From the IMG/VR virus record IMGVR_UViG_3300038409_000042: a stretch of 64,000 nt of DNA; one strand, 5' to 3'. This stretch comes from a virus. Its lineage: Duplodnaviria; Heunggongvirae; Uroviricota; Caudoviricetes. Below the pieces are notes generated by a model. The model saw nothing but the letters and a program-made list of their open reading frames with translations. It was not told the DNA's origin and did not search any database. This document shows positions 5,270-55,548 of this stretch, in pieces. Both the position numbers and the translations under genes were made by a program. How positions within the stretch are numbered: position 1 is the first letter of the stretch; each line of letters begins with the position of its first letter.

Positions 5270-5722
5270 CTACGGAGTCAGGGCCACAAGCGGCAGAATC
5301 ATATCTGCAAAAAATGTCGCTGCGCCCACTGCGCTAGAGCCTCCAGTCTGTGTAATTCTGACGTGAAGTAACCCTCCGGCTGGAAATGAAGTAAAATCAG
5401 CCGCAGCCGCGCTAACTAATGTATGATTATAAACGCCAATTGCTTTCACAGTAGTAGAAGCAACATATTGAGCGCCGCCGGCTACGTTACCTACCGTAAT
5501 CAATGCATCCGTAACGGCTTCGAATGCCGTTGTAGTATGAGTTCTTAAATGCTCGATTGAAGCTCCTTCTGGGACTTCAAGAGTAAAATCAGTCGTAGCC
5601 TGTGCCGGAACAGTAATCGTCAATCTACGAGCTACTTGTGCCGCGCAATTGATCGATTCCTCTCCCTCAACGGCCATACCCTGCTTAGAGCAAATAGGTC
5701 CTGACCAATGTGAAGCGCCCAT
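5270..5722 (-). CDS. hypothetical virion protein, possibly head decoration
   Basis: 150-aa Thr/Ala/Gly-rich ORF immediately downstream of the putative capsid gene. Confidence 0.5.
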   Translation of the reverse strand: MGASHWSGPICSKQGMAVEGEESINCAAQVARRLTITVPAQATTDFTLEVPEGASIEHLRTHTTTAFEAVTDALITVGNVAGGAQYVASTTVKAIGVYNHTLVSAAAADFTSFPAGGLLHVRITQTGGSSAVGAATFFADMILPLVALTP

Positions 5723-5725
5723 CTA

Positions 5726-6628
5726 TTAGCTCCCGCCGCTAGAACCATAACCCCCGAGAGGATCGGTCGCACCGAATGAATACCGCTCTCTAGACTTATA
5801 CTTCATGTTGCCAGTATCGAAGTCCACCTCAGAGCCAGTCTTGATCGCCACTCTGTTGAACATCTTGAACCCGCCAGGAACATCGGTCAGAAGGAACCAA
5901 GCATTCGTATCCGTGAAGTAATGATTAACGCAGTAACCCTCAGGGATCGTGCCAAGTTGCCTCATTGCATTCGGATCATTGTCAGAAGTCGCAACCCGAA
6001 GTTTCGACGTGAGAATTCTTTCCGCCGTAAAGAGCAGAGCAGGCGGAACCGCCAACTTTCTTGGTCTAGCCGCAATAAGAAGCCCGCGTTCGTCCGTCCA
6101 GGCTGCAATTGCGATCGAAGCATTCTCAAGCGCCGTTTCGCTAAGGTCAGCCGCAACCCGATTGCTAAGCGTACCCCCAGAGATGAGCGGGTGGGCCGTG
6201 CTAAAGAGCGTGACGCCATCGCCCGTTTGGAAGGTCGTGAAGCCATCATTGAAGGTTGCCGCGGCCCTCACTTGCTTAGTGTGAGCCATAGACCGGGCCA
6301 ACGCTTTGGTATATCTGCTAGAAAGACTTCCGTAGAGATTATCTTCGAACGCTTCCTCGGTTAGAGCGAAGCCTTGAGCAATCGTAACGTGCGTGTATCT
6401 AGCCGTCCATGCTTCCTGAGCGTTGTCATAATCAACCGGAGAGCCTTCAAGCTTAACTCCAGCCGCCTTAAATCCGCCTAATTTTTGCTCTTCTTCGAAG
6501 GCCCGTTCCGAACTATCCATTTCGTATAGTTCAGTATGCTCTTCGGTATATTTCTTGTATTCAAGACCAAAGAGTTTATTAAGTCCAGGAACAAGTTCTT
6601 TAAGTAATTGTGCTCTACTAATTGCCAT
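5726..6628 (-). CDS. putative major capsid protein (HK97-fold-like)
   Basis: 300 aa. Sits downstream of the portal and scaffold-like genes in the same transcription direction. Composition and length fit a small capsid protein; assignment is by position and eye only. Confidence 0.5.
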   Translation of the reverse strand: MAISRAQLLKELVPGLNKLFGLEYKKYTEEHTELYEMDSSERAFEEEQKLGGFKAAGVKLEGSPVDYDNAQEAWTARYTHVTIAQGFALTEEAFEDNLYGSLSSRYTKALARSMAHTKQVRAAATFNDGFTTFQTGDGVTLFSTAHPLISGGTLSNRVAADLSETALENASIAIAAWTDERGLLIAARPRKLAVPPALLFTAERILTSKLRVATSDNDPNAMRQLGTIPEGYCVNHYFTDTNAWFLLTDVPGGFKMFNRVAIKTGSEVDFDTGNMKYKSRERYSFGATDPLGGYGSSGGS

Positions 6629-12258: not shown

Positions 12259-13809
12259 TTAGTAATATTTAGCTTTCCTTATTCTCTTGTTTTCAAGTTC
12301 TTCGTCATCATTATCATCAGTTTCAGTCTTAACAAAACCCCCTCTTCTGAATCTAATCAATGCTTGCGTCGTAGTATCAACCAAATCATCATTTTCACCG
12401 TTTGGGAAGGCCGCTAGTTGTTCAATTGTGTGCTCATTTTTCCGATCTTTAGTACTATCACTCTGAGCAAACCATATACATCTAGACATAAACAAATCAC
12501 TGACAGAATTAACTCTGACAATCTTATCATTACCTCTGCTTGGAATGAAGGCCAATACAGGAAGCCTTGTCTGTCTTAATTCGTCCAATAATGGCGATCC
12601 TGCGGCTTTTTCTTCTACAAGTATCTGATCGGCCTTTGTGTCTTTAAATATTTGAATAGCCTTTCTTTTAAGGTCAGGGAATGCCATTCTTTCAAAGAAA
12701 GATTCAAGCAGAATAATACCGTATTCTCCTTCCTTCTCGAATATTCCCCATGTCGTACAGGCACAAAAGTCCGAAGTTTCTGTTTTTTTATAGGCCGTGT
12801 CCCAAGAGTTAATAATGTAAGAACAATGTGGCAGAGGTTGACCATCGGGCCATGGCTGCCACCATTCCCTCTTCACGAGAGCAGCTTCGTCTGAGGTTGG
12901 ATTCTGTTGATAAATGCAATTCCAGAGGTTAAGTGGCATCTCCGACTTAAGGCCAAGCCAATAATCCATCGGCCTAAGTTCAGGGAATATGCAGTGAGCC
13001 TCATCCGGGAAAATCGCAGGAAACTCTATGATCTCGAATTTCTCAACGCCTGCCTTACCCATATTCTTCTTAATACGTCCGGTAAGGTCTCGCTCTCCCC
13101 ATCGAGTCATAATGATGATCATCCTGGAGTCCGGCTCCATTCTTTGTCTAGGACCCTGGAGATACCAATCATAAACCTTGTCAAAGACTTCCGGCTTAAA
13201 TGCAGCAATCTTGCCGTCTTGTTCTGAGACAGGATCATCAATTATAAACAGCTTAGAATTTCGGCCAGCAACATTACCCTCTGTGCCGACCGCGAAGTAC
13301 TCCGCTCCATCTGTTGTCTTCCAGAAACCCGCCGCCTTCTGGGCGGGATTCAGCTTTACGTCTGGAAAGATATCAAGATATAAAGGCGTTTGAATTAGGT
13401 CTCTAACGTCCTTGGCCCACTTGAGACTGAATTCTGCCGTGTGTGTGGCTTGAATGACATGCTGACCTGGACATTTACCAAGGAAGAATGCCGGAAGATA
13501 AAGGGAACTCAGAAGAGACTTGCCCACGCGAGGGGGCATATTGAGGATGACCCTCTTCTTCTCTCCGGTCACGACCTTATCGAAAATATCGCCAATAATC
13601 TTATGGTGCGCAGAGATCGTACCTCCGGGATATACATACCGGACGAAATCTACAAACTTCTCTCTTGCCTTAACCTTAGTGTTTGACTTTTCATAAGCCG
13701 AGACAAGACGGAGTATTTCCTGTTGCTCGTACAGAGGTAGGCGTGCTATATCGTCTAAATTCAACATGATTAATAAATCATGGAGAATTATACATCTTGA
13801 CACACCCAC
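12259..13809 (-). CDS. terminase large subunit
   Basis: 516 aa. Walker A-like LNMPPRVGKS. Aromatic and acidic C-terminal nuclease-like half. First gene of the leftward morphogenesis operon. Confidence 0.8.
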   Translation of the reverse strand: MGVSRCIILHDLLIMLNLDDIARLPLYEQQEILRLVSAYEKSNTKVKAREKFVDFVRYVYPGGTISAHHKIIGDIFDKVVTGEKKRVILNMPPRVGKSLLSSLYLPAFFLGKCPGQHVIQATHTAEFSLKWAKDVRDLIQTPLYLDIFPDVKLNPAQKAAGFWKTTDGAEYFAVGTEGNVAGRNSKLFIIDDPVSEQDGKIAAFKPEVFDKVYDWYLQGPRQRMEPDSRMIIIMTRWGERDLTGRIKKNMGKAGVEKFEIIEFPAIFPDEAHCIFPELRPMDYWLGLKSEMPLNLWNCIYQQNPTSDEAALVKREWWQPWPDGQPLPHCSYIINSWDTAYKKTETSDFCACTTWGIFEKEGEYGIILLESFFERMAFPDLKRKAIQIFKDTKADQILVEEKAAGSPLLDELRQTRLPVLAFIPSRGNDKIVRVNSVSDLFMSRCIWFAQSDSTKDRKNEHTIEQLAAFPNGENDDLVDTTTQALIRFRRGGFVKTETDDNDDEELENKRIRKAKYY

Positions 13810-13933
13810 TAGGGGAGTCTACTTATGGAGATATAGCGGGGTAGATTAACGGCAGATCAGTAGGCTCATGCCCTACGCGTGTAGGTTCAACTCCTTCCCC
13901 CGCTCCCATCTCTTCTTGACAATGGATTATCAA

Positions 13934-14086
13934 ATGGCTAGAAAAAAGCCCGAAGAAAGCCGCGACGATTACGTAAACCGTAAGGTCGCCCACATGAATC
14001 GGATGGGCATTCCGGCGGTAATTTACCGTGGCGCAGCCTGTCCAGTTTGGCTGAAAGAGCAGCTAGAGAAGGACGAAAACAAGTGA
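13934..14086 (+). CDS. small basic hypothetical protein
   Basis: MARKKPEESRDDYVNRK... in frame with track ORF 13868-14086. First plus-strand gene after a TTGACA-containing divergent region. Confidence 0.3.
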   Translation: MARKKPEESRDDYVNRKVAHMNRMGIPAVIYRGAACPVWLKEQLEKDENK

Positions 14087-14103
14087 ACCAAGAAGACCCC
14101 GTT

Positions 14104-14838
14104 ATGAAGACGGCCGGCTGGCTAGTCCCACAAGGGCAGTTGGCCGTCTATATGCTTCTGGACCGCAGTGGCTCGATGGCGCATCGTTGGGAAGAGACAA
14201 TTAGCTCTCTCAATGCCTATGTCAGAGAACTTGCCGAAGGTGGTCAGGGCGATGCAGACATTACGATTGCTCTGTTTGACGAACATTGCGGTCTCCAGTT
14301 TGAGCTTGTCAGAGACAAGACGAAAGCCAAGGACTTCGTTCCTATAGACTTTCAACTCACGAGACCGAGAGGTTCAACGCCGCTCTATGATGCTTGCGGT
14401 AAGATTTATTCTCTTGCTGCCGAGAGGAATGAGCCAAAGACCGTTATGGTCATTCTCACTGATGGGCACGAAAACGCCTCCAAAGAAATGACCAAGAGTT
14501 TGGTCAAGAAGCTTATTGAAGACTTCAAGGCTAAGGTCTGGCAGACTGTGTTCCTTGGCGTTGACTTTGACGCCTATGGAGAGGCTGGCGCAATTGGTGT
14601 TCGCGCCTCCAATACCCTGAACACGCAATCAGCTTATGCTGGTCAAACGATGCGGTCTATGGCCTCCCGCACTGTAGCTTATGCTGGAGCGGCGACTCAA
14701 GACTTCGCAGAACAGGCCATGTGCTTCGATGTTGATGATACCGATCTTGGAAGTGGAAAACTTTCGATCGAAGAATGGTCAAAGCGCTACGAACAGAAGA
14801 TGAGGACTCAGAAAAAGGATGACAAAACCGGGCAATAG
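14104..14838 (+). CDS. von Willebrand factor A (vWA) domain protein
   Basis: MIDAS motif LLDRSGSM (DxSxS) plus downstream T and D residues. Start taken at ATG 14104; the track start (TTG, 14047) overlaps the upstream ORF. Confidence 0.7.
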   Translation: MKTAGWLVPQGQLAVYMLLDRSGSMAHRWEETISSLNAYVRELAEGGQGDADITIALFDEHCGLQFELVRDKTKAKDFVPIDFQLTRPRGSTPLYDACGKIYSLAAERNEPKTVMVILTDGHENASKEMTKSLVKKLIEDFKAKVWQTVFLGVDFDAYGEAGAIGVRASNTLNTQSAYAGQTMRSMASRTVAYAGAATQDFAEQAMCFDVDDTDLGSGKLSIEEWSKRYEQKMRTQKKDDKTGQ

Positions 14839-15085: not shown

Positions 15086-15256
15086 GCCAGTAGGGACCGG
15101 GGACGCCCGGCGACTCCTGGGGTGGCTCTATTGTCAAGAAGTCCGGGCTGCGTCCATAGTGAAATACCTATAGCAGGCAGTGATCACACCGGATGCCACT
15201 TGACTTTTCTGGTTCGATTCCGGACACACGCTCCATTCCTTATTTAGGAGAAAGAA

Positions 15257-15676
15257 ATGACCAAGAAAATAACCGTAGTGATTCCAAAGCGCACGGCTGA
15301 AAACACTGTCGATGCAAAGGAACCACTGACAGTTAATATAACTGCTAGCGATATCCATGGCGCAACTCTTCTCAATCCAGAAAGTTGCGCCGCCGCCCGA
15401 TCCGTTAAGAGAACGCTCCATTGCCAGCGCGTGGAGATTTATCGTTCCAGAACTTATGTCTTCAATGGAAGAGGAAAATGGGTCAGATATAAAACCCCAC
15501 GATCTCTGAGAGAAGAAACGATTGTTCTGGACAGAGGCGGAAAATTCCAATCCGGCGAATACACATTCGATCAGCCGGAAGTCAGGACCTATAGGCCGGC
15601 GACTAAGGCCACAAAAACTACCAACAAAAAGTCTAAAGTCAGACGAATTTTAGCTGACGTTAGGCCAAGAGCCTAA
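15257..15676 (+). CDS. hypothetical basic protein
   Basis: RBS AGGAGAAAGAAATG. 139 aa. Strand-consistent with neighbours; the antisense ORF 15134-15550 is rejected. Confidence 0.5.
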   Translation: MTKKITVVIPKRTAENTVDAKEPLTVNITASDIHGATLLNPESCAAARSVKRTLHCQRVEIYRSRTYVFNGRGKWVRYKTPRSLREETIVLDRGGKFQSGEYTFDQPEVRTYRPATKATKTTNKKSKVRRILADVRPRA

Positions 15677-15679
15677 AGC

Positions 15680-15754
15680 GTCCCCTTAGCTCAATGGATA
15701 GAGCAGGAACCTTCTAAGTTCAAGATACGGGTTCGATTCCTGTAGGGGACGCCA
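15680..15754 (+). tRNA. tRNA-Arg (anticodon TCT), CCA encoded
   Basis: Hand fold: acceptor GTCCCCT/AGGGGAC; D-arm GCTC-AATGGATA-GAGC; anticodon loop CTTCTAA; T-arm ACGGG-TTCGATT-CCTGT; discriminator G then CCA. Confidence 0.75.
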
Positions 15755-16199: not shown

Positions 16200-16473
16200 G
16201 TATAAAGTCGCGCCGGATGGGTTCAATCACGGCATGTTCAAGATTCCTATGCCTGAGCACGCCGAGATCGTCCATGTGGACATAATCGATGGTCATCTTT
16301 GCTTCTGGGCAGAGATTACCAAAGAGAATAAGATGGAAGATAAACCCTTCCGTGTCTTCATGACTGGACAAGACGTAACGGATGGCGACGAATCCGAATG
16401 GCTAATCTACCATTTGAGAACGGTAGTTAATCATGATACGGGCGTTGTCATGCACGTCTACGAATACGTATGA
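16183..16473 (+). CDS. hypothetical protein
   Basis: 96-aa ORF with RBS GGAGGAAGAGAGTAATG. Confidence 0.5.
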   Translation: MQVVHKYKVAPDGFNHGMFKIPMPEHAEIVHVDIIDGHLCFWAEITKENKMEDKPFRVFMTGQDVTDGDESEWLIYHLRTVVNHDTGVVMHVYEYV

Positions 16474-16483
16474 GATAATGGTT

Positions 16484-16589
16484 GGTTCCGTAGCTCAGTA
16501 GTAGAGCGGCGATTAATAATCGCGTCAACACGTAGGATCGGCCGGTTTTATGTGTTATGCCCTCGGTGCAATTCCAGGCGGAACCACCA
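16484..16589 (+). ncRNA. atypical 106-nt tRNA-like element (canonical acceptor, D-arm and CCA; ~35-nt insertion and non-canonical T-arm)
   Basis: Acceptor GGTTCCG ... CGGAACC-A-CCA pairs 7/7. D-arm GCTC-AGTAGTA-GAGC. Hairpin GCGAT-TAATA-ATCGC occupies the anticodon-arm position. The remaining 37 nt (including GGCCGG) cannot be placed in a standard cloverleaf. Confidence 0.4.
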
Positions 16590-16593
16590 ATAT

Positions 16594-16667
16594 AGGCCGG
16601 TAGCTCAGCTGGTTAGAGCGCACGACTGATAATCGTGAGGTGGAGGGTTCGAATCCCTCTCGGCCTA
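16594..16667 (+). tRNA. tRNA-Ile (anticodon GAT)
   Basis: Near-identical architecture to E. coli tRNA-Ile(GAU). Acceptor AGGCCGG/TCGGCCT; TAGCTCAGCTGGTTAGAGC; anticodon arm CACGA-CTGATAA-TCGTG; T-arm GAGGG-TTCGAAT-CCCTC. No encoded CCA. Confidence 0.85.
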
Positions 16668-16744
16668 GAGCTAGTAGCCCAACGGCAGAGGCAGCGGTGT
16701 TAAGCTCCGTTCAGTGATGGGTTCGAATCCCTCCTAGCTCACCA
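16668..16744 (+). tRNA. tRNA, anticodon uncertain (loop contains TTAA; possibly TAA Leu-type or an expanded 9-nt loop)
   Basis: Acceptor GAGCTAG/CTAGCTC pairs 7/7. Discriminator A then CCA. Gln-like 3-bp D-stem GCC...GGC. T-loop TTCGAAT. Anticodon stem is imperfect: AGCGG-TGTTAAGCT-CCGTT gives a 9-nt loop. Confidence 0.5.
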
Positions 16745-16748
16745 TAAT

Positions 16749-16834
16749 CGACGGGTGGATGAGTGGATGAAATCGCCAGACTGTAAATCTGGCCCTTAAA
16801 AAGCACGCTGGTTCGAATCCAGCCCCGTCGACCA
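16749..16834 (+). tRNA. tRNA-Tyr (anticodon GTA), type II with long variable arm; CCA encoded
   Basis: Acceptor CGACGGG/CCCGTCG. Anticodon arm CCAGA-CTGTAAA-TCTGG. T-arm GCTGG-TTCGAAT-CCAGC. 86 nt; discriminator A then CCA. Confidence 0.75.
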
Positions 16835-16835
16835 T

Positions 16836-16907
16836 AGACCCGTAGCTTAACGGTAGAGCGCGCGCCTTATAAGCGTTAGATGCAGGGTTCGATTCCCGCC
16901 GGGTCTA
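16836..16907 (+). tRNA. tRNA-like gene, anticodon loop CTTATAA (TAT, Ile-like); weak anticodon and T stems
   Basis: Acceptor AGACCCG/CGGGTCT pairs 7/7. D-arm GCTT-AACGGTA-GAGC. T-loop TTCGATT. Anticodon stem has only 3-4 pairs. Confidence 0.45.
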
Positions 16908-16944
16908 CTTGCGTTACCCTAGAAATCAGAGATATTCTGGTCGA

Positions 16945-17970
16945 ATGACTCCCGGCCTTTTGATCCCATCTAAAACGTATAAGCCCTTTAGATATCCTTG
17001 GGCATTTGAATTCTGGCAACGCCAACAGCAAATTCACTGGCTCCCTGAAGAAGTTCCGCTTGGGGATGACGTTAATGATTGGAACAATAATCTAACACAA
17101 GAGGAGAAGAACTTACTTACTCAGATATTTCGTTTCTTTACACAATCTGACGTTGAAGTCAACGATAACTATATGGAACGATATTCCCGTGTGTTCGTGC
17201 CAACAGAGATTAAGATGATGCTCGCGTCATTCTCAAACATGGAGACCGTTCATATAGCAGCCTATGCTCATCTCTTAGAAACAATCGGCATGCCAGAAGC
17301 TGAATTCGCAGCCTTCCTCGATTATGAAGAGATGCGAGCCAAACATGAATACATGAACACTTTCACGATAAAAAACCGCACAGAGATCGTGAAAACTGTC
17401 GCTATGTTTGGAGCCTTTACAGAAGGATTGCAACTCTTTGCCAGCTTTGCCATGCTTCTAAACTTCCCTCGGTTAAACAAGATGAAAGGAATGGGCCAGA
17501 TCGTAACTTGGAGTGTCAGAGATGAAAGCCTTCATTGCGAAGGCATGATCAAACTTTATCACACATTCGTGCGTGAGATTGGCGGCATCGACGACAAGAC
17601 CAAAGATGAGATTGTTCAAATGTGTCTCAAGGTGGTCGAGATGGAAGATCGCTTCATTGACCTAGCATTCAGGTTGGGCGCGGTCCAAGGTATGACCCCG
17701 CTTGATATTAAGAACTACATCCGTTATATTGCTGACTGGCGCTTGCGCCAGCTCGAATTGCCGCCGATCTTTGGAATCAAAGAGCATCCCCTGCCCTGGC
17801 TCGCGTTGATGCTCAACGGCGTGGAGCATGCCAACTTCTTTGAAGCGCGTGCTACCGAATATTCCAAGGGGGCGACAAAAGGCGAATGGCACGGCGAGAA
17901 TGGCGTGTGGGCCAACTTCGATAGTTTCATGAAGAAAAGGACAGATTTCAGTGTATCGAGTGCAGCCTGA
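16945..17970 (+). CDS. nrdB: ribonucleotide reductase class I beta (small, R2) subunit
   Basis: Ferritin-like diiron motifs FFTQSDVEV, AAYAHLLETIG, FASFAMLLNF and SVRDESLHCEG (ExxH pairs). Start moved from the track TTG (16909) to ATG 16945. Confidence 0.85.
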   Translation: MTPGLLIPSKTYKPFRYPWAFEFWQRQQQIHWLPEEVPLGDDVNDWNNNLTQEEKNLLTQIFRFFTQSDVEVNDNYMERYSRVFVPTEIKMMLASFSNMETVHIAAYAHLLETIGMPEAEFAAFLDYEEMRAKHEYMNTFTIKNRTEIVKTVAMFGAFTEGLQLFASFAMLLNFPRLNKMKGMGQIVTWSVRDESLHCEGMIKLYHTFVREIGGIDDKTKDEIVQMCLKVVEMEDRFIDLAFRLGAVQGMTPLDIKNYIRYIADWRLRQLELPPIFGIKEHPLPWLALMLNGVEHANFFEARATEYSKGATKGEWHGENGVWANFDSFMKKRTDFSVSSAA

Positions 17971-18454
17971 CAAGAAGGTCTGGACGCCTGAATATTTCAG
18001 CGCCGAAGACTTTGTTCGTGAATCTAACGCGATTGAAAATATCTATCGTGATCCAACTCCAGAGGAAATAGCAGAGCATGAGCGCTTCCAGCGCTTAGAG
18101 AAAGTTACCTTATCGGACATGGAGCAATTCGTTTCTATCTACGCTCCAAATAATGTCCTGCGTCGACAGAGGGGATGGGACGTTCGAATCGGGGGCTACA
18201 TAGCCCCGAGAGGCGGCCCCGAGATCGAGACGCGTCTTCAATCTATCCTGGATAGGTGCGTTAGTCGCAATCCATATGCCTACGATAATGCATGGACAAT
18301 CCACGTGGATTATGAAAAACTCCATCCCTTCACGGATGGCAATGGTCGCTCCGGGCGAGCCCTCTGGCTATGGACAATGAATAATATGGCTCCGCTTGGG
18401 TTCCTGCGTCATTTCTATTATCAAACTCTCAGCAAGCAAAGTTCGATCGGATGA
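17951..18454 (+). CDS. Fic/Doc-family protein (AMPylation-type fido domain)
   Basis: Canonical Fic motif HPFTDGNGRSGR (HxFx[D/E]GNGRxxR). 167 aa. GTG start overlapping the nrdB end by 20 nt. Confidence 0.75.
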   Translation: MYRVQPDKKVWTPEYFSAEDFVRESNAIENIYRDPTPEEIAEHERFQRLEKVTLSDMEQFVSIYAPNNVLRRQRGWDVRIGGYIAPRGGPEIETRLQSILDRCVSRNPYAYDNAWTIHVDYEKLHPFTDGNGRSGRALWLWTMNNMAPLGFLRHFYYQTLSKQSSIG

Positions 18455-19170: not shown

Positions 19171-19548
19171 ATGATTCCAGTACTAGTCTGTGGCGGGAGG
19201 CGATACGATAATCGGAATCTCGTATTCAAAACCCTCTACAAGGTACATGAGGATCATGGAATTTTCTATCTTATCAATGGATGGGCTAGGGGAGCAGACG
19301 AGCTAGCACGGGATTTTTGTTGGCAGGCAAAGATTCCGTGCTGGAACTTTCCGGCTGATTGGGACAAAGAGGGGCTTAAAGCTGGTTTTCTAAGAAACAT
19401 TAAGATGTTGAATTTAGGAAAACCTAAGTTAATAATAGCATTTCCAGGTGGACCCGGCACAGCTGACATGATACGACGTGGCAAGCAAGCTGGGGTAACA
19501 GTACAGGAAATCAATGACCCAACAGCCATACAAAATAATTTTTCTTGA
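19171..19548 (+). CDS. Rossmann-like SLOG/DUF2493-type protein
   Basis: VLVCGGRRY ... GADELA ... AFPGGPGTADM pattern typical of the LOG/DprA-like SLOG fold. By eye only. Confidence 0.4.
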   Translation: MIPVLVCGGRRYDNRNLVFKTLYKVHEDHGIFYLINGWARGADELARDFCWQAKIPCWNFPADWDKEGLKAGFLRNIKMLNLGKPKLIIAFPGGPGTADMIRRGKQAGVTVQEINDPTAIQNNFS

Positions 19549-20008
19549 CGTTGACGGCGTTCTCAACCGGACCAGCGGTCCTAGTTTCCTGACAGTTCCT
19601 GGCCTCATGATGGCTCCGCCATTCATTGTCGAGCGGAACATTGTTGAGTACTTCGTAGAGACAATTAGTAAATATCCAGACATTCGTGTTGTCGTGTCAT
19701 CAACGTGGCGATTTCATTGTGACAGTCCAGAAATGTTTAGCGATGCTACAGGCGTCCCTCATAGACTCCTGCATCCTGACTGGCGTCTCCAGACCCTAGG
19801 AGGAGAGGATCGTCCAGAAGATGTAAAGCAGTGGCTTACACTTCATCCCGAAATCACTGAATACGTGATAATTGACGATACTAAATACGCCTTCACACTC
19901 GTACTTCAAAGGGAGCCTATTTTTGTGAGAACGAGAGAGGATCGGGGTTTAACTCAACAAAATCTACATCAGGCCCTTACAATCCTGGGCCTAGACCCAC
20001 GGAAGTAG
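19514..20008 (+). CDS. HAD-superfamily hydrolase (phosphatase/nucleotidase-like)
   Basis: Motif I FLDVDGVLN (DxDG[TV]). Downstream VVVSST and IIDD motifs. Confidence 0.65.
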   Translation: MTQQPYKIIFLDVDGVLNRTSGPSFLTVPGLMMAPPFIVERNIVEYFVETISKYPDIRVVVSSTWRFHCDSPEMFSDATGVPHRLLHPDWRLQTLGGEDRPEDVKQWLTLHPEITEYVIIDDTKYAFTLVLQREPIFVRTREDRGLTQQNLHQALTILGLDPRK

Positions 20009-54888: not shown

Positions 54889-54961
54889 ACCCGTGCGGCT
54901 GTGGTAGCCAGGAAGCCTCCAAAACTTCTGAGCGGCGGTTCGATTCCGCCCACGGGTGCCA
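54889..54961 (+). ncRNA. tRNA-like element with encoded CCA, 9-nt anticodon-position loop and missing nucleotide 9
   Basis: Acceptor ACCCGTG/CACGGGT pairs 7/7. Discriminator G then CCA. D-arm GGCT-GTGGT-AGCC. Stem GGAAG/CTTCT with loop CCTCCAAAA. T-arm GGCGG-TTCGATT-CCGCC. Only one nucleotide lies between the acceptor and the D-stem. Confidence 0.45.
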
Positions 54962-54963
54962 AC

Positions 54964-55548
54964 ATGAGTGGGAAAGACGCTTTAATAAGTGTGGCTGCTA
55001 GCCTAGAGGCTGCTATCTCCTTACTGGAGAGGGTGCCTCAGGCTAAGAAAGCAGTGGCTTCTGATCGTATGTTCGATCAGATGATAAAGGACTATAAAGC
55101 TTCTCTTGAGAAAGCTAGAAAAGAGCTTAGGGATAGTTTGATGGAGCCATCTCCCATGAGCCCTAAAGAAGAGCTAGACTTCCTTCGAACATCTAATAGA
55201 CTCCTCCGAGAAGAGGTAGTGAGACTGAGGAAAATGCGGGAAGACTCGGAGAATGGCCGTAAGATCGGCCGGCTCAAATACATCGGGGAGCTGCCGAATG
55301 GCTGCGGCCTATGGGTCGCGCCAAATGAGGCCGGTGGACGCACCTATTGGTCTAATGAGTGCGGTATCGAGACCTTCATATGGGACACTGCCCTTGTATG
55401 CCGATCTTCTGTTCTGGCTGCACTCGTGGCCGAAGAGAAGATTGAGTATGCAGAAGCAATAAGGAAGCATTATGAAGCCAAGGGCGATCCCACTGAGCCT
55501 GTTTCGGGTAAGGGAAAAATGTCCGCTCCCGATCCTTCCATCCTCTGA
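54964..55548 (+). CDS. hypothetical coiled-coil protein
   Basis: ATG 3 nt after the tRNA-like CCA. The track start 54901 lies inside the tRNA-like element. Confidence 0.5.
   Translation: MSGKDALISVAASLEAAISLLERVPQAKKAVASDRMFDQMIKDYKASLEKARKELRDSLMEPSPMSPKEELDFLRTSNRLLREEVVRLRKMREDSENGRKIGRLKYIGELPNGCGLWVAPNEAGGRTYWSNECGIETFIWDTALVCRSSVLAALVAEEKIEYAEAIRKHYEAKGDPTEPVSGKGKMSAPDPSIL

What the first reader, a model, noticed from the sequence alone, without database searches (positions are those of the whole stretch)
16484..16907. Five-gene tRNA cluster mixing canonical tRNAs with structurally aberrant tRNA-like genes
tRNA-Ile(GAT) (16594-16667, near-identical architecture to E. coli tRNA-Ile) and tRNA-Tyr(GTA) (16749-16834) are canonical. 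The first element (16484-16589) has a perfect acceptor stem, D-arm and CCA but is 106 nt, with a GCGAT-TAATA-ATCGC hairpin and ~37 extra nt where the anticodon/variable region should be. 16668-16744 has a perfect acceptor plus CCA but an anticodon arm that only closes as a 9-nt loop TGTTAAGCT (or as GTTAAGC with G32). 16836-16907 has loop CTTATAA (anticodon TAT) and a weak stem. Expanded or odd anticodon loops in phage tRNAs can indicate suppressor or frameshifting tRNAs. Given the Ro60 locus elsewhere in this genome, the 106-nt element could also be a Y-RNA-like or intron-containing species. The genes are packed with 0-4 nt spacers, suggesting one processed transcript.
Basis: seen in the sequence. 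Interest (0 to 1): 0.55.

Follow-up and report, generated by a model that had tools for sequence, protein, structure and literature searches.

The report
Phage tRNA cluster with tRNA mimic
A bacteriophage carries a tightly packed row of four ordinary transfer-RNA genes, preceded by a 106-base gene that folds like a transfer RNA but has two hairpins where the anticodon arm should be; the four are routine and the fifth is an unexplained one-off.

Summary
The cluster at 16484-16907 (+) is real. Standard predictors call four of the five genes as normal tRNAs with 7-nt anticodon loops: Ile(GAU), Leu(UAA), Tyr(GUA) and Ile(UAU).

The "odd" gene at 16668-16744 is not aberrant. It belongs to a short (type I) tRNA-Leu family found in 74 phage records, always with a Leu anticodon and supported by covariation.

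I found no sign of suppressor, frameshift, Y-RNA or intron function.

The first gene (16484-16589) is truly non-canonical. It has a perfect acceptor stem, an encoded CCA, a D arm, and every class-I tertiary-contact nucleotide. These include an A18/G55 elbow pair that covaries in many viral tRNAs. The anticodon arm, however, is replaced by two hairpins. One is a 15-nt hairpin whose loop, UUAAUAA, resembles a tRNA-Ile anticodon loop. The other is a 13-bp hairpin that forms only on this strand and contains four G·U pairs.

The element has no homologue in any collection searched, because the phage is a singleton. Selection therefore cannot be shown.

My best reading is a tRNA-processed, L-shaped tRNA mimic that is not a standard decoder. 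A decaying pseudogene and a decoding tRNA-Ile(AAU) with a giant extra arm remain live rivals.

The phage also encodes Ro60, Y-like RNAs and RNA-repair domains. Interest is moderate.

The parts
16484..16589 (+). 106-nt tRNA-like RNA gene (element 1), with encoded CCA at 16587-16589 and discriminator A at 16586
   Evidence: Sequence. Rfam tRNA 36.7 bits only in the sensitive scan, with the anticodon arm unaligned. Not called by default ARAGORN. Fold -41 kcal/mol, z = -4.1. Helix probabilities 0.95-1.0 for the acceptor stem, D arm and both hairpins.
16484..16490 (+). Element 1 acceptor stem, 5' strand (GGUUCCG). It pairs perfectly with 16579-16585 (CGGAACC).
   Evidence: 7 of 7 Watson-Crick pairs.
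16493..16507 (+). Element 1 D arm, GCUC-AGUAGUA-GAGC, with A18 and G19 in the loop
   Evidence: This exact D arm occurs in at least 120 IMG/VR contigs, almost always together with a G55 T loop.
16509..16523 (+). Hairpin A: GCGAU-UAAUA-AUCGC. It can also be read as 4 bp plus a 7-nt loop UUAAUAA, which is a tRNA-Ile-type anticodon loop with A34. It is 2 nt shorter than a canonical anticodon arm.
   Evidence: The core CGA-yUrAUAA-UCG matches the neighbouring tRNA-Ile(GAU) arm CACGA-CUGAUAA-UCGUG. ARAGORN at a lowered threshold reads anticodon aat.
16527..16556 (+). Hairpin B: a 13-bp stem with 4 G·U pairs and a GGCC loop. Its 3' strand sits where anticodon-stem positions 39-43 would be.
   Evidence: -12.2 kcal/mol on the + strand against -1.2 on the - strand. 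Not repeated elsewhere in the window.
16557..16578 (+). AUGCC (which fits A44 U45 G46 C47 C48) followed by the T arm CUCGG-UGCAAUU-CCAGG. The T loop has G55. The stem has one C·A mismatch, or in the alternative register a bulged C.
   Evidence: The tRNA-like fold with the bulged-C register is -39.0 kcal/mol against an MFE of -41.0.
16594..16667 (+). tRNA-Ile(GAU), canonical, with no encoded CCA. It abuts the next tRNA with a 0-nt spacer.
   Evidence: Rfam 69.2 bits. ARAGORN. 81% identical to E. coli tRNA-Ile.
16668..16744 (+). Type I (short variable loop) tRNA-Leu(UAA) with encoded CCA; member of a phage-wide family
   Evidence: ARAGORN and Rfam at 36.7 bits. 74 phage records match, with tRNA-Leu the only annotation under the listed matches. 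In the 10-sequence alignment every anticodon is a Leu anticodon, and 12 of 21 pairs show compensatory change.
16749..16834 (+). tRNA-Tyr(GUA), bacterial type II (long variable arm), with encoded CCA
   Evidence: Rfam 58.9 bits. ARAGORN.
16836..16907 (+). tRNA-Ile(UAU), which reads AUA; no encoded CCA
   Evidence: Rfam 57.9 bits. ARAGORN gives the 7-nt loop CUUAUAA.

Best explanation
The locus is a phage tRNA operon lying between a DUF7352 gene and nrdB.

Four genes are working tRNAs: Ile-GAU, type I Leu-UAA, Tyr-GUA and Ile-UAU. They supply decoders for the A/U-rich codons of this 47% GC phage, as the T4 tRNA set does.

The first gene encodes a 106-nt RNA that keeps everything needed to be handled as a tRNA. 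It has a perfect acceptor stem, A73 and CCA, and a D/T elbow with a co-adapted A18/G55 pair next to G19-C56. It also has the class-I core contacts U8/A14, G15/C48, G26/A44, G46 and U54/A58. Its anticodon arm is replaced by a fork of two hairpins.

I infer that RNase P and 3'-end trimming cut it out of the polycistronic precursor and that it folds into an L-shaped body. I also infer that it acts as a tRNA mimic rather than a standard decoder. It could be a decoy or scaffold for a tRNA-binding enzyme, for example IleRS, a modification enzyme, or a host tRNA-targeting nuclease or repair factor.

What is shown: the sequence anatomy, the strand-specific fold, and the calls made by the predictors. 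What is inferred: transcription, processing, and the mimic function.
For: - Four standard tRNA calls.
- Codon usage fits the tRNA set. AUU is 43% and AUA 22% of Ile codons, AGA is the commonest Arg codon, and UAU is 66% of Tyr codons. Stop-codon use is normal.
- Element 1 fold: -41 kcal/mol, z = -4.1. Pair probabilities for the acceptor stem, D arm and both hairpins are 0.82-1.0, nearly all at or above 0.95.
- Hairpin B forms only on the + strand (-12.2 against -1.2 kcal/mol). It has 4 G·U pairs and no mismatch, which points to constraint at the RNA level rather than a DNA palindrome.
- The A18 D loop and the G55 T loop covary in viral tRNAs. At least 35 of 40 AG-type D loops have G55, against 0 of 131 GG-type D loops. 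The elbow of element 1 is therefore a matched pair, not decay.
- All canonical tertiary-contact nucleotides are present.
- Neither hairpin gives a canonical 5-bp stem with a 7-nt loop in the right register.
- The phage invests in tRNA and RNA conflict functions: Ro60 with Y-like RNAs, and a YAcAr domain and an RNA-repair HAD domain 2.6-3.4 kb downstream. The background for these is in PMC7824862.
- There is a precedent for stable RNAs of unknown function inside a phage tRNA cluster: T4 rnaC and rnaD.
Against: - No homologue was found anywhere, so there is no covariation or conservation evidence for element 1.
- The other contigs carrying this phage are identical across the cluster.
- There are no expression data.
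- The T stem has a mismatch or a bulge, and by thermodynamics alone the T arm has a pair probability of only about 0.2.
- No promoter or terminator signal delimits the unit.
- The mimic or decoy role is inference from anatomy and gene context only.
Confidence: 0.4

Rival explanations
1. Decaying pseudogene. A formerly normal tRNA gene, acquired horizontally with its A18/G55 elbow, suffered an insertion or rearrangement in the anticodon region and a T-stem lesion. It now has no function. It may still be transcribed and processed simply because it sits inside the operon.
For: - It is a singleton with no conserved relatives.
- It fails default ARAGORN and the whole-window Rfam scan.
- The anticodon hairpin is 2 nt short and the T stem is imperfect.
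- Aberrant long tRNA-like genes also occur in other tRNA-rich viral contigs, for example L187 2560-2661.
Against: - The damage is confined to the anticodon domain. The acceptor stem (7 of 7 pairs), the D stem, the CCA and every tertiary-contact nucleotide are intact.
- The extra hairpin is a 13-bp RNA-only helix with 4 G·U pairs, 0 A·C pairs and no other mismatch. Neutral decay of a palindrome would not be expected to give this.
- Phage genomes are compact, and the spacers around the element are only 4-10 nt.
Confidence: 0.3
2. A decoding tRNA-Ile(AAU) with an oversized extra arm. Hairpin A is the anticodon arm (4 bp plus loop UUAAUAA, anticodon AAU reading AUU, the phage's commonest Ile codon). 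Hairpin B is a 13-bp variable arm.
For: - The loop matches the xU-NAU-AA pattern of the two neighbouring Ile tRNAs.
- The stem core C29-G41/G30-C40/A31-U39 equals that of tRNA-Ile(GAU).
- It has A73 and an encoded CCA.
- AUU is 43% of Ile codons.
- ARAGORN at a lowered threshold calls it Ile(aat).
- A viral tRNA-Ile(AAU) exists in L083.
- A viral tRNA-Asn(GUU) carries an atypical long variable arm, L187 5506-5597.
- Engineered tRNAs with hairpin-extended variable arms are translationally active (PMC7590224).
Against: - The anticodon arm is one base pair short, or else closes to a 5-nt loop with probability 0.96.
- Five nucleotides (AUGCC, which look like a class-I variable loop) follow the 'variable arm'. 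Hairpin B therefore occupies the 39-43 position rather than that of a class-II arm.
- A34 is rare in bacterial-type tRNAs (general knowledge).
- tRNA-Ile(GAU), 5 nt downstream, already reads AUU.
Confidence: 0.2
3. A Y-RNA-like partner of the phage Ro60 protein.
For: The phage encodes a TROVE+VWA Ro60 orthologue at 38700-40049. Bacterial and phage Y RNAs contain tRNA-like domains (PMC4201824).
Against: - Reported YrlA RNAs lie within 4 kb of Ro60. This element is 22 kb away.
- Three better candidates sit immediately upstream of Ro60, at about 38140-38520.
- Element 1 is not permuted, and its ends form an acceptor stem with CCA rather than a Ro-binding stem.
- It has no GNCGAA motif.
- The Rfam YrlA model gives only 17.6-20.8-bit artefacts that span neighbouring tRNAs, and nothing on element 1.
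Confidence: 0.05
4. An intron-containing, suppressor or frameshifting tRNA.
For: The gene is longer than a tRNA. ARAGORN can force an 18-nt 'intron' solution.
Against: - No group I intron or other intron family matches at E<=10.
- 30-37 nt is far below group I size.
- No single excision restores a 17-nt arm whose 3' strand precedes AUGCC (inspection).
- The look-alike long genes found with the same D arm are intron-bearing tRNAs of Micrarchaeota archaea, unrelated to a bacteriophage.
- This phage's tRNA-Tyr is the bacterial type II form.
- Stop-codon usage and ORF lengths are standard.
Confidence: 0.03

Closest known systems
Phage T4 tRNA cluster with the stable RNAs rnaC (species 1) and rnaD (species 2)
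   Same: Both are tightly packed phage tRNA operons that supply decoders for A-ending codons. Arg-UCU and Leu-UAA are shared with this phage. Both include small stable RNAs of unknown function, and T4 rnaC carries a canonical T arm. In both, some tRNAs lack an encoded CCA and abut their neighbours.
   Different: There is no sequence similarity. T4 rnaC and rnaD are 139 and 119 nt and lack a full D arm and acceptor with CCA; Rfam tRNA does not match them. Element 1 keeps the complete tRNA core. Homology was not shown.
YrlA / bacterial and phage Y RNAs (Rfam RF02553; PMC4201824)
   Same: Both are non-decoding RNAs with a tRNA-like D/T elbow that tRNA enzymes can handle. The same phage encodes Ro60.
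   Different: In YrlA the tRNA-like domain is circularly permuted. The RNA ends form a Ro-binding stem where the anticodon stem would be, and the gene lies within 4 kb of Ro60. Element 1 has the normal order, an open acceptor stem with CCA, lies 22 kb away, and has no YrlA match.
Class II tRNAs and engineered tRNAs with aptamer-extended variable arms (PMC7590224)
   Same: Both have an extra helix between the anticodon arm and the T arm. Extended variable arms can be tolerated in translation, and a 'pseudo-anticodon' arm has been engineered as a protein handle.
   Different: The extra helix of element 1 is 13 bp and is followed by a 5-nt loop that looks like a class-I variable loop. The other hairpin is 2 nt short of an anticodon arm. 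No Ile tRNA of class II is known to me (own knowledge).
Type I (short variable loop) tRNA-Leu: Streptomyces coelicolor tRNA-Leu(CAA) (PMC6614811) and tRNA-Leu genes annotated in many phages
   Same: The gene at 16668-16744 shares the conserved body, A73, the short variable loop and a Leu anticodon with tRNAs of phages infecting Mycobacterium, Corynebacterium, Bacillus, Enterococcus, Streptomyces, Pseudomonas, Erwinia, Myxococcus and cyanobacteria.
   Different: The window copy has G32, G37 and C38, a U31·U39 mismatch, and G1-C72 instead of the family's usual G1·U72. Charging by the unknown host's LeuRS is untested. E. coli LeuRS did not charge the S. coelicolor type I tRNA.
Intron-bearing tRNA genes of Micrarchaeota (DPANN archaea)
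   Same: They have the same D arm, GUAGCUCAGUAGUAGAGC, a G55 T loop and a gene length above 100 nt.
   Different: In several of them (L245, L249, L250) the insert sits in a normal anticodon loop at or near 37/38 and pairs with the anticodon, so removing it restores a canonical tRNA. Element 1 has no such solution and sits in a bacteriophage.

Membership tests
Canonical tRNA (Rfam RF00005), element 1 | 7-bp acceptor stem, discriminator base and (in bacteria often) an encoded CCA | tested here: met
   GGUUCCG/CGGAACC pair at 7 of 7 positions, followed by A73 and CCA.
Canonical tRNA (Rfam RF00005), element 1 | D arm and T arm forming the elbow (18-55 and 19-56 contacts, U54-A58, G53-C61) | tested here: met
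   The D arm is perfect. A18/G55 is a covarying substitute for G18/U55 in viral tRNAs. G19/C56, U54/A58 and G53-C61 are present. The T stem has one mismatch or bulge.
Canonical tRNA (Rfam RF00005), element 1 | One anticodon arm of 5 bp with a 7-nt loop, between position 26 and the variable region | tested here: not met
   Two hairpins (15 nt and 30 nt) occupy this position. Infernal leaves the arm unaligned. Default ARAGORN makes no call.
Canonical tRNA (Rfam RF00005), element 1 | Score at or above Rfam's gathering threshold (29 bits) | tested here: inconclusive
   36.7 bits in the sensitive 581-nt scan, but not reported in the whole-window scan at gathering threshold.
YrlA / Y RNA | Encoded within about 4 kb of Ro60 on the same strand | tested here: not met
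   Ro60 is at 38700-40049. Element 1 ends at 16589, on the same strand but 22 kb away.
YrlA / Y RNA | Permuted tRNA-like domain closed by a terminal stem carrying the GNCGAA(N)G Ro-binding motif; Rfam YrlA match | tested here: not met
   The domain order is normal and the ends form an acceptor stem. The motif is absent. No YrlA match overlaps element 1 (gathering score 69).
tmRNA | tRNA-like domain plus a tag reading frame | tested here: not met
   ARAGORN in tmRNA mode finds nothing in 16400-17000.
tRNA with a group I or archaeal-type intron | Removing the insert restores a canonical anticodon arm; a catalytic core or a bulge-helix-bulge motif is present | tested here: not met
   No intron family matches at E<=10. 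The only ARAGORN solution needs a lowered threshold and a mismatched stem. The stem strand 5' of AUGCC (GUGUU) pairs only with AACAC inside the insert.
Suppressor or frameshift tRNA (16668-16744 and 16836-16907) | Stop-complementary anticodon or an 8-9-nt anticodon loop | tested here: not met
   The loops are 7 nt, GUUAAGC and CUUAUAA, with anticodons UAA (Leu) and UAU (Ile). The phage uses all three stop codons normally.
Phage type I tRNA-Leu family (16668-16744) | Conserved body (GUAGCCCAA..CGGCAGAGGCAG ... UUCAGUG.UGGGUUCGAAUCCC), short variable loop, A73 and a Leu anticodon | tested here: met
   74 phage records match, with tRNA-Leu the only annotation under the listed matches. In the alignment all 10 anticodons are Leu anticodons (UAA, UAG, CAA, GAG, AAG). 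12 of 21 pairs show compensatory change.
Phage type I tRNA-Leu family (16668-16744) | Leucylation by the host LeuRS | not testable with these tools
   The host is unknown. Type I tRNA-Leu is charged by S. coelicolor LeuRS but not by E. coli LeuRS (PMC6614811).

The most novel reading that the evidence does not exclude
Element 1 is a functional phage RNA of a kind not yet described. It is a CCA-ended, RNase P-processed tRNA body whose anticodon arm is replaced by a fork. One prong presents a tRNA-Ile-like anticodon loop and the other is a 13-bp helix. The RNA would work either as a decoy or adaptor in the host-phage conflict over tRNAs (alongside the phage's Ro60, Y-like RNAs and RNA-repair genes), or as a decoding tRNA-Ile(AAU) with the longest natural extra arm known.
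Probability: 0.25. Interest if true: 0.65.

Novelty: new variant of a known kind. Interest (0 to 1): 0.4.

Why it matters
Phage tRNA clusters are now seen as tools against host tRNA-cleaving defences as well as for codon supply. A tRNA-shaped RNA that cannot decode normally, yet keeps every feature needed for tRNA processing and recognition, would be a candidate decoy or scaffold in that conflict. It would join T4's long-unexplained rnaC and rnaD as a tractable example.

Two by-products may be of wider use. The first is the A18/G55 elbow covariation in viral tRNAs. The second is the phage-wide type I tRNA-Leu family. Bacterial tRNA-Leu is nearly always type II, and E. coli LeuRS did not charge a type I tRNA-Leu in the one study read.

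If element 1 is only a pseudogene, the locus is an ordinary phage tRNA cluster.

Tried and rejected
1. Search for homologues of element 1. Every attempt failed.
- megablast and blastn against 50,697 phage records found nothing beyond a 26-nt D-arm match to tRNA-Asn genes.
- Exact-pattern scans of IMG/VR for the D arm with the start of hairpin A, for hairpin A, and for the T arm with the acceptor strand gave 0 hits.
- The neighbouring DUF7352 protein has only itself among 5.8 billion proteins, and no relative in IMG/VR.
- The other contigs carrying this phage are identical across the cluster.
- The nearest TerL relatives are at most 54% identical, and ARAGORN found no tRNA within the 8-10 kb flanks examined.
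- NrdB relatives are at most 72% identical, and ARAGORN found no tRNA in the 30 closest loci.

2. Structural pattern search: A18 D arm, then 45-75 nt, then a G55 T loop.
- It gave 2 IMG/VR, 6 metagenome and 10 GTDB hits.
- 9 of the 10 genome hits are Micrarchaeota MAGs. Several of the metagenome hits are clearly intron-bearing tRNAs. They are not homologues of element 1 and were rejected as relatives.

3. The idea that hairpin B is a repeat or mobile element was rejected. It occurs only once in the window.

4. The idea that hairpin B is a terminator or attenuator was rejected. No + strand terminator call falls in the cluster.

5. tmRNA, tRNA-Sec, YrlA and intron readings were rejected.

6. I did not build a covariance model of element 1.
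Full report
**What is there.** The window is part of a phage genome of about 77.6 kb, known only from a few metagenome assemblies. The large terminase is at 12259-13809 (-) and nrdB starts at about 16945 (+). The nearest terminase relatives are at most 54% identical. The nearest NrdB relatives (68-72%) are in Brevundimonas and Caulobacter phages and in IMG/VR contigs.

Between a DUF7352 gene that ends at 16473 and nrdB lie five tRNA-type genes on the + strand, separated by spacers of 4, 0, 4 and 1 nt. No sigma-70-like promoter or + strand terminator falls inside the cluster. Co-transcription with the flanking genes is therefore the simplest reading, but it is an inference.

**The four ordinary genes.** Default ARAGORN calls Ile(gat) 16593-16668, Leu(taa) 16668-16744, Tyr(gta) 16749-16834 and Ile(tat) 16836-16908, all with 7-nt anticodon loops. 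Rfam's tRNA model scores them 69.2, 36.7, 58.9 and 57.9 bits against a gathering score of 29.
- Ile(GAU) is 81% identical over its full length to E. coli tRNA-Ile.
- Tyr has the long variable arm of bacterial tRNA-Tyr, which points to a bacterial host.
- Three genes encode CCA: element 1, Leu and Tyr. The two Ile genes do not. Ile(GAU) ends exactly where Leu begins.

The phage is 47% GC and prefers AUU (43% of Ile), AGA and UAU. AUA makes up 22% of Ile codons and UUA 11% of Leu codons. All three stop codons are used, and ORFs are long under the standard code. This fits classical codon supplementation, as in T4. T4's set shares Arg-UCU and Leu-UAA with this phage. Nothing supports suppression or frameshifting.

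**The gene at 16668-16744 is a family member, not an oddity.** blastn finds relatives in 74 phage records. Their hosts include Mycobacterium, Corynebacterium, Bacillus, Enterococcus, Streptomyces, Pseudomonas, Erwinia, Myxococcus and cyanobacteria. tRNA-Leu is the only annotation under the listed matches.

I aligned ten representatives. They share the body GUAGCCCAA..CGGCAGAGGCAG...UUCAGUG.UGGGUUCGAAUCCC, the discriminator A73 and a short variable loop. Every anticodon is a Leu anticodon: UAA, UAG, CAA, GAG or AAG. Twelve of 21 pairs show compensatory change, and the 31-39 pair is weak in several members, as it is here.

This is therefore a type I tRNA-Leu, whereas bacterial tRNA-Leu is almost always type II. 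A type I tRNA-Leu is known in Streptomyces coelicolor. There its LeuRS charges it, but E. coli LeuRS does not (PMC6614811). Whether this phage's host charges the tRNA is untested.

**Anatomy of the first gene (16484-16589).**
- Acceptor stem GGUUCCG/CGGAACC, 7 of 7 pairs.
- U8 and A9.
- D arm GCUC-AGUAGUA-GAGC.
- G26.
- Hairpin A, GCGAU-UAAUA-AUCGC.
- The linker GUC.
- Hairpin B, AACACGUAGGAUC-GGCC-GGUUUUAUGUGUU. It has 13 pairs, four of them G·U.
- AUGCC.
- T arm CUCGG-UGCAAUU-CCAGG, with one C·A mismatch or, in another register, a bulged C.
- A73 and CCA.

The MFE is -41 kcal/mol, with z = -4.1 and 0 of 200 shuffles as good. Pair probabilities are about 1.0 for the acceptor stem, the D arm and both hairpins. 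A tRNA-like fold that includes the T arm lies 2 kcal/mol above the MFE.

Hairpin B is -12.2 kcal/mol on this strand and -1.2 on the other. It is therefore an RNA helix and not a DNA palindrome, and it is not repeated elsewhere in the window.

Default ARAGORN and the whole-window Rfam scan both miss the gene. A sensitive scan gives tRNA at 36.7 bits with the anticodon arm unaligned and 33 nt inserted. ARAGORN reports Ile(aat) with a forced 18-nt intron only at a lowered threshold.

**The core of element 1 looks maintained.** If AUGCC is read as positions 44-48, every class-I tertiary-contact nucleotide is in place: U8/A14, A9, G15/C48, G19/C56, A21, G26/A44, G46, U54/A58 and G53-C61.

The two departures are A18 and G55, and they go together. 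The D arm GUAGCUCAGUAGUAGAGC occurs in at least 120 IMG/VR contigs. Among 190 distinct tRNAs on those contigs, at least 35 of 40 with an AG-type D loop have G55, while 0 of 131 with a GG D loop do. The elbow is thus a co-adapted variant. It differs from all other tRNAs in the window, so the gene is not a local duplicate.

**The anticodon domain of element 1 is not canonical.** Hairpin A follows G26 as an anticodon arm would. Read as 4 bp plus UUAAUAA, it has the xU-NAU-AA loop and the C29-G41/G30-C40/A31-U39 core of the neighbouring tRNA-Ile(GAU). But it is one pair short, and it prefers to close to a 5-nt loop. Hairpin B ends exactly where positions 39-43 should be, but it has a GGCC tetraloop. 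Two hairpins therefore replace one arm, making a five-way junction.

**No comparative evidence for element 1.** I found no homologue in the isolate phage records, IMG/VR, JGI metagenomes, GTDB genomes or the 5.8-billion-protein neighbourhood route. The other contigs carrying the phage are identical here.

A structural pattern (A18 D arm, long gap, G55 T loop) mostly retrieved intron-bearing tRNAs of Micrarchaeota. These are unrelated, although they share the same elbow.

**Interpretation.** I favour a processed tRNA mimic that does not decode normally (0.4). The reasons are that the damage is confined to the anticodon domain, the extra helix shows RNA-level constraint, and the phage carries other tRNA and RNA conflict functions. 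Those functions are a Ro60 orthologue with three tRNA-like or Y-like modules upstream, and Fic, YAcAr and an RNA-repair HAD domain just downstream of nrdB (background). T4's rnaC and rnaD are the precedent for unexplained stable RNAs in a phage tRNA cluster.

The rivals are:
- A pseudogene (0.3). It is a singleton, the T stem is imperfect, and there is no conservation evidence.
- A decoding tRNA-Ile(AAU) with a 13-bp extra arm (0.2). AUU is the commonest Ile codon. Viral tRNA-Ile(AAU) exists, and so does a viral tRNA-Asn with an atypical long arm. Extended variable arms can be translationally active.
- A Ro60 partner (0.05).
- An intron-containing or suppressor tRNA (0.03).

**Verdict.** This is an ordinary phage tRNA cluster plus one orphan, well-folded tRNA-like gene with an unusual forked architecture. 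It is moderately interesting, it is a new variant of a known kind, and its function is unproven.

Noticed in passing
window 38140-38520 (+) and ORF 38700-40049 (+): A Ro60 orthologue (TROVE plus VWA domains) is preceded by three tandem modules. Each starts with GUGGCGU(U)AGA...UUACUUCG and contains tRNA-like arms. One has the T arm, hairpin, D arm order of YrlA (Rfam YrlA 27.9 bits, below the gathering score of 69). Rfam tRNA matches lie at 38162-38225 (acceptor ends unmatched) and 38430-38498. They look like divergent phage Y RNAs that the Rfam threshold misses.
   Followed up: partly
IMG/VR loci L081-L200 (for example L081, L087, L133) and window 16497-16503 / 16566-16572: In viral tRNAs, a D loop AGUAGUA (A18 G19) goes with a T loop UGCRA or CGCGA (G55). 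At least 35 of 40 such tRNAs show this, against 0 of 131 tRNAs with a GG D loop on the same contigs. This looks like a covarying replacement of the universal G18-U55 elbow contact. The same pair occurs in Micrarchaeota tRNAs.
   Followed up: partly
window 16668-16744; L251 330-403; L262-L269: A short (type I) tRNA-Leu family with any of five Leu anticodons is spread across phages of very different hosts. These include Erwinia and Pseudomonas phages, whereas bacterial tRNA-Leu is almost always type II, and E. coli LeuRS failed to charge a type I tRNA-Leu in the one study read (PMC6614811). How these tRNAs are charged is an open point.
   Followed up: partly
IMG/VR loci from sample 3300045988 (for example L084, L085, L111, L122, L135, L195): Near-identical tRNA-like genes (GGGAGAGUAGCUCAGUAGUAGAGCGCCAGGGGAAGNNNUCCUUGG...) differ almost only in three or four loop bases (UGU, AUU, GUU, GGU, GAU, AGGU). 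They have no U33, and ARAGORN assigns them to Thr, Ser, Pro or Leu with A34. The loop is hypervariable on a fixed body.
   Followed up: no
L187 (IMG/VR contig) 5506-5597, 5940-6082, 2560-2661: A tRNA-rich viral contig carries three unusual genes: a tRNA-Asn(GUU) with an atypical long variable arm, a tRNA with an insert of about 70 nt that splits a CUGUUAA anticodon loop, and a 102-nt tRNA-like gene with a non-canonical anticodon region. Over-long tRNA-type genes are therefore not unique to this window.
   Followed up: partly
window 17951-18454, 19171-19548, 19514-20008 (+): Directly downstream of nrdB lie a Fic/DOC-domain ORF, a YAcAr (SLOG) ORF, and an ORF with the HAD domain of 'Swiss Army Knife' RNA-repair proteins. 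This is an RNA and NAD conflict toolkit close to the tRNA cluster. A VWA protein lies at 14047-14838.
   Followed up: partly
L245, L249, L250 (metagenome) and L252-L258, L260, L261 (GTDB Micrarchaeota MAGs): In the three metagenome loci, tRNA genes carry inserts of about 35-45 nt at or near position 37/38. The intron pairs with the anticodon, and a 3-nt bulge (CAA or AAC) precedes the 3' strand of the anticodon stem. The GTDB loci were retrieved by the same D-arm and T-loop pattern and are almost all Micrarchaeota MAGs, but I did not read their sequences.
   Followed up: no
window 54889-54961 (+) and 13835-13908 (+): There are further scattered phage tRNA genes. Trp(CCA) scores only 34.8 bits and overlaps the start of a 215-aa ORF (54901-55548). 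Met(CAU) lies next to the terminase gene and Arg(UCU) is at 15680-15754.
   Followed up: no
window 14482-14497 and 15251-15266 (+): An exact 16-nt direct repeat, AAAGAAATGACCAAGA, occurs twice, 769 nt apart, upstream of the tRNA region.
   Followed up: no
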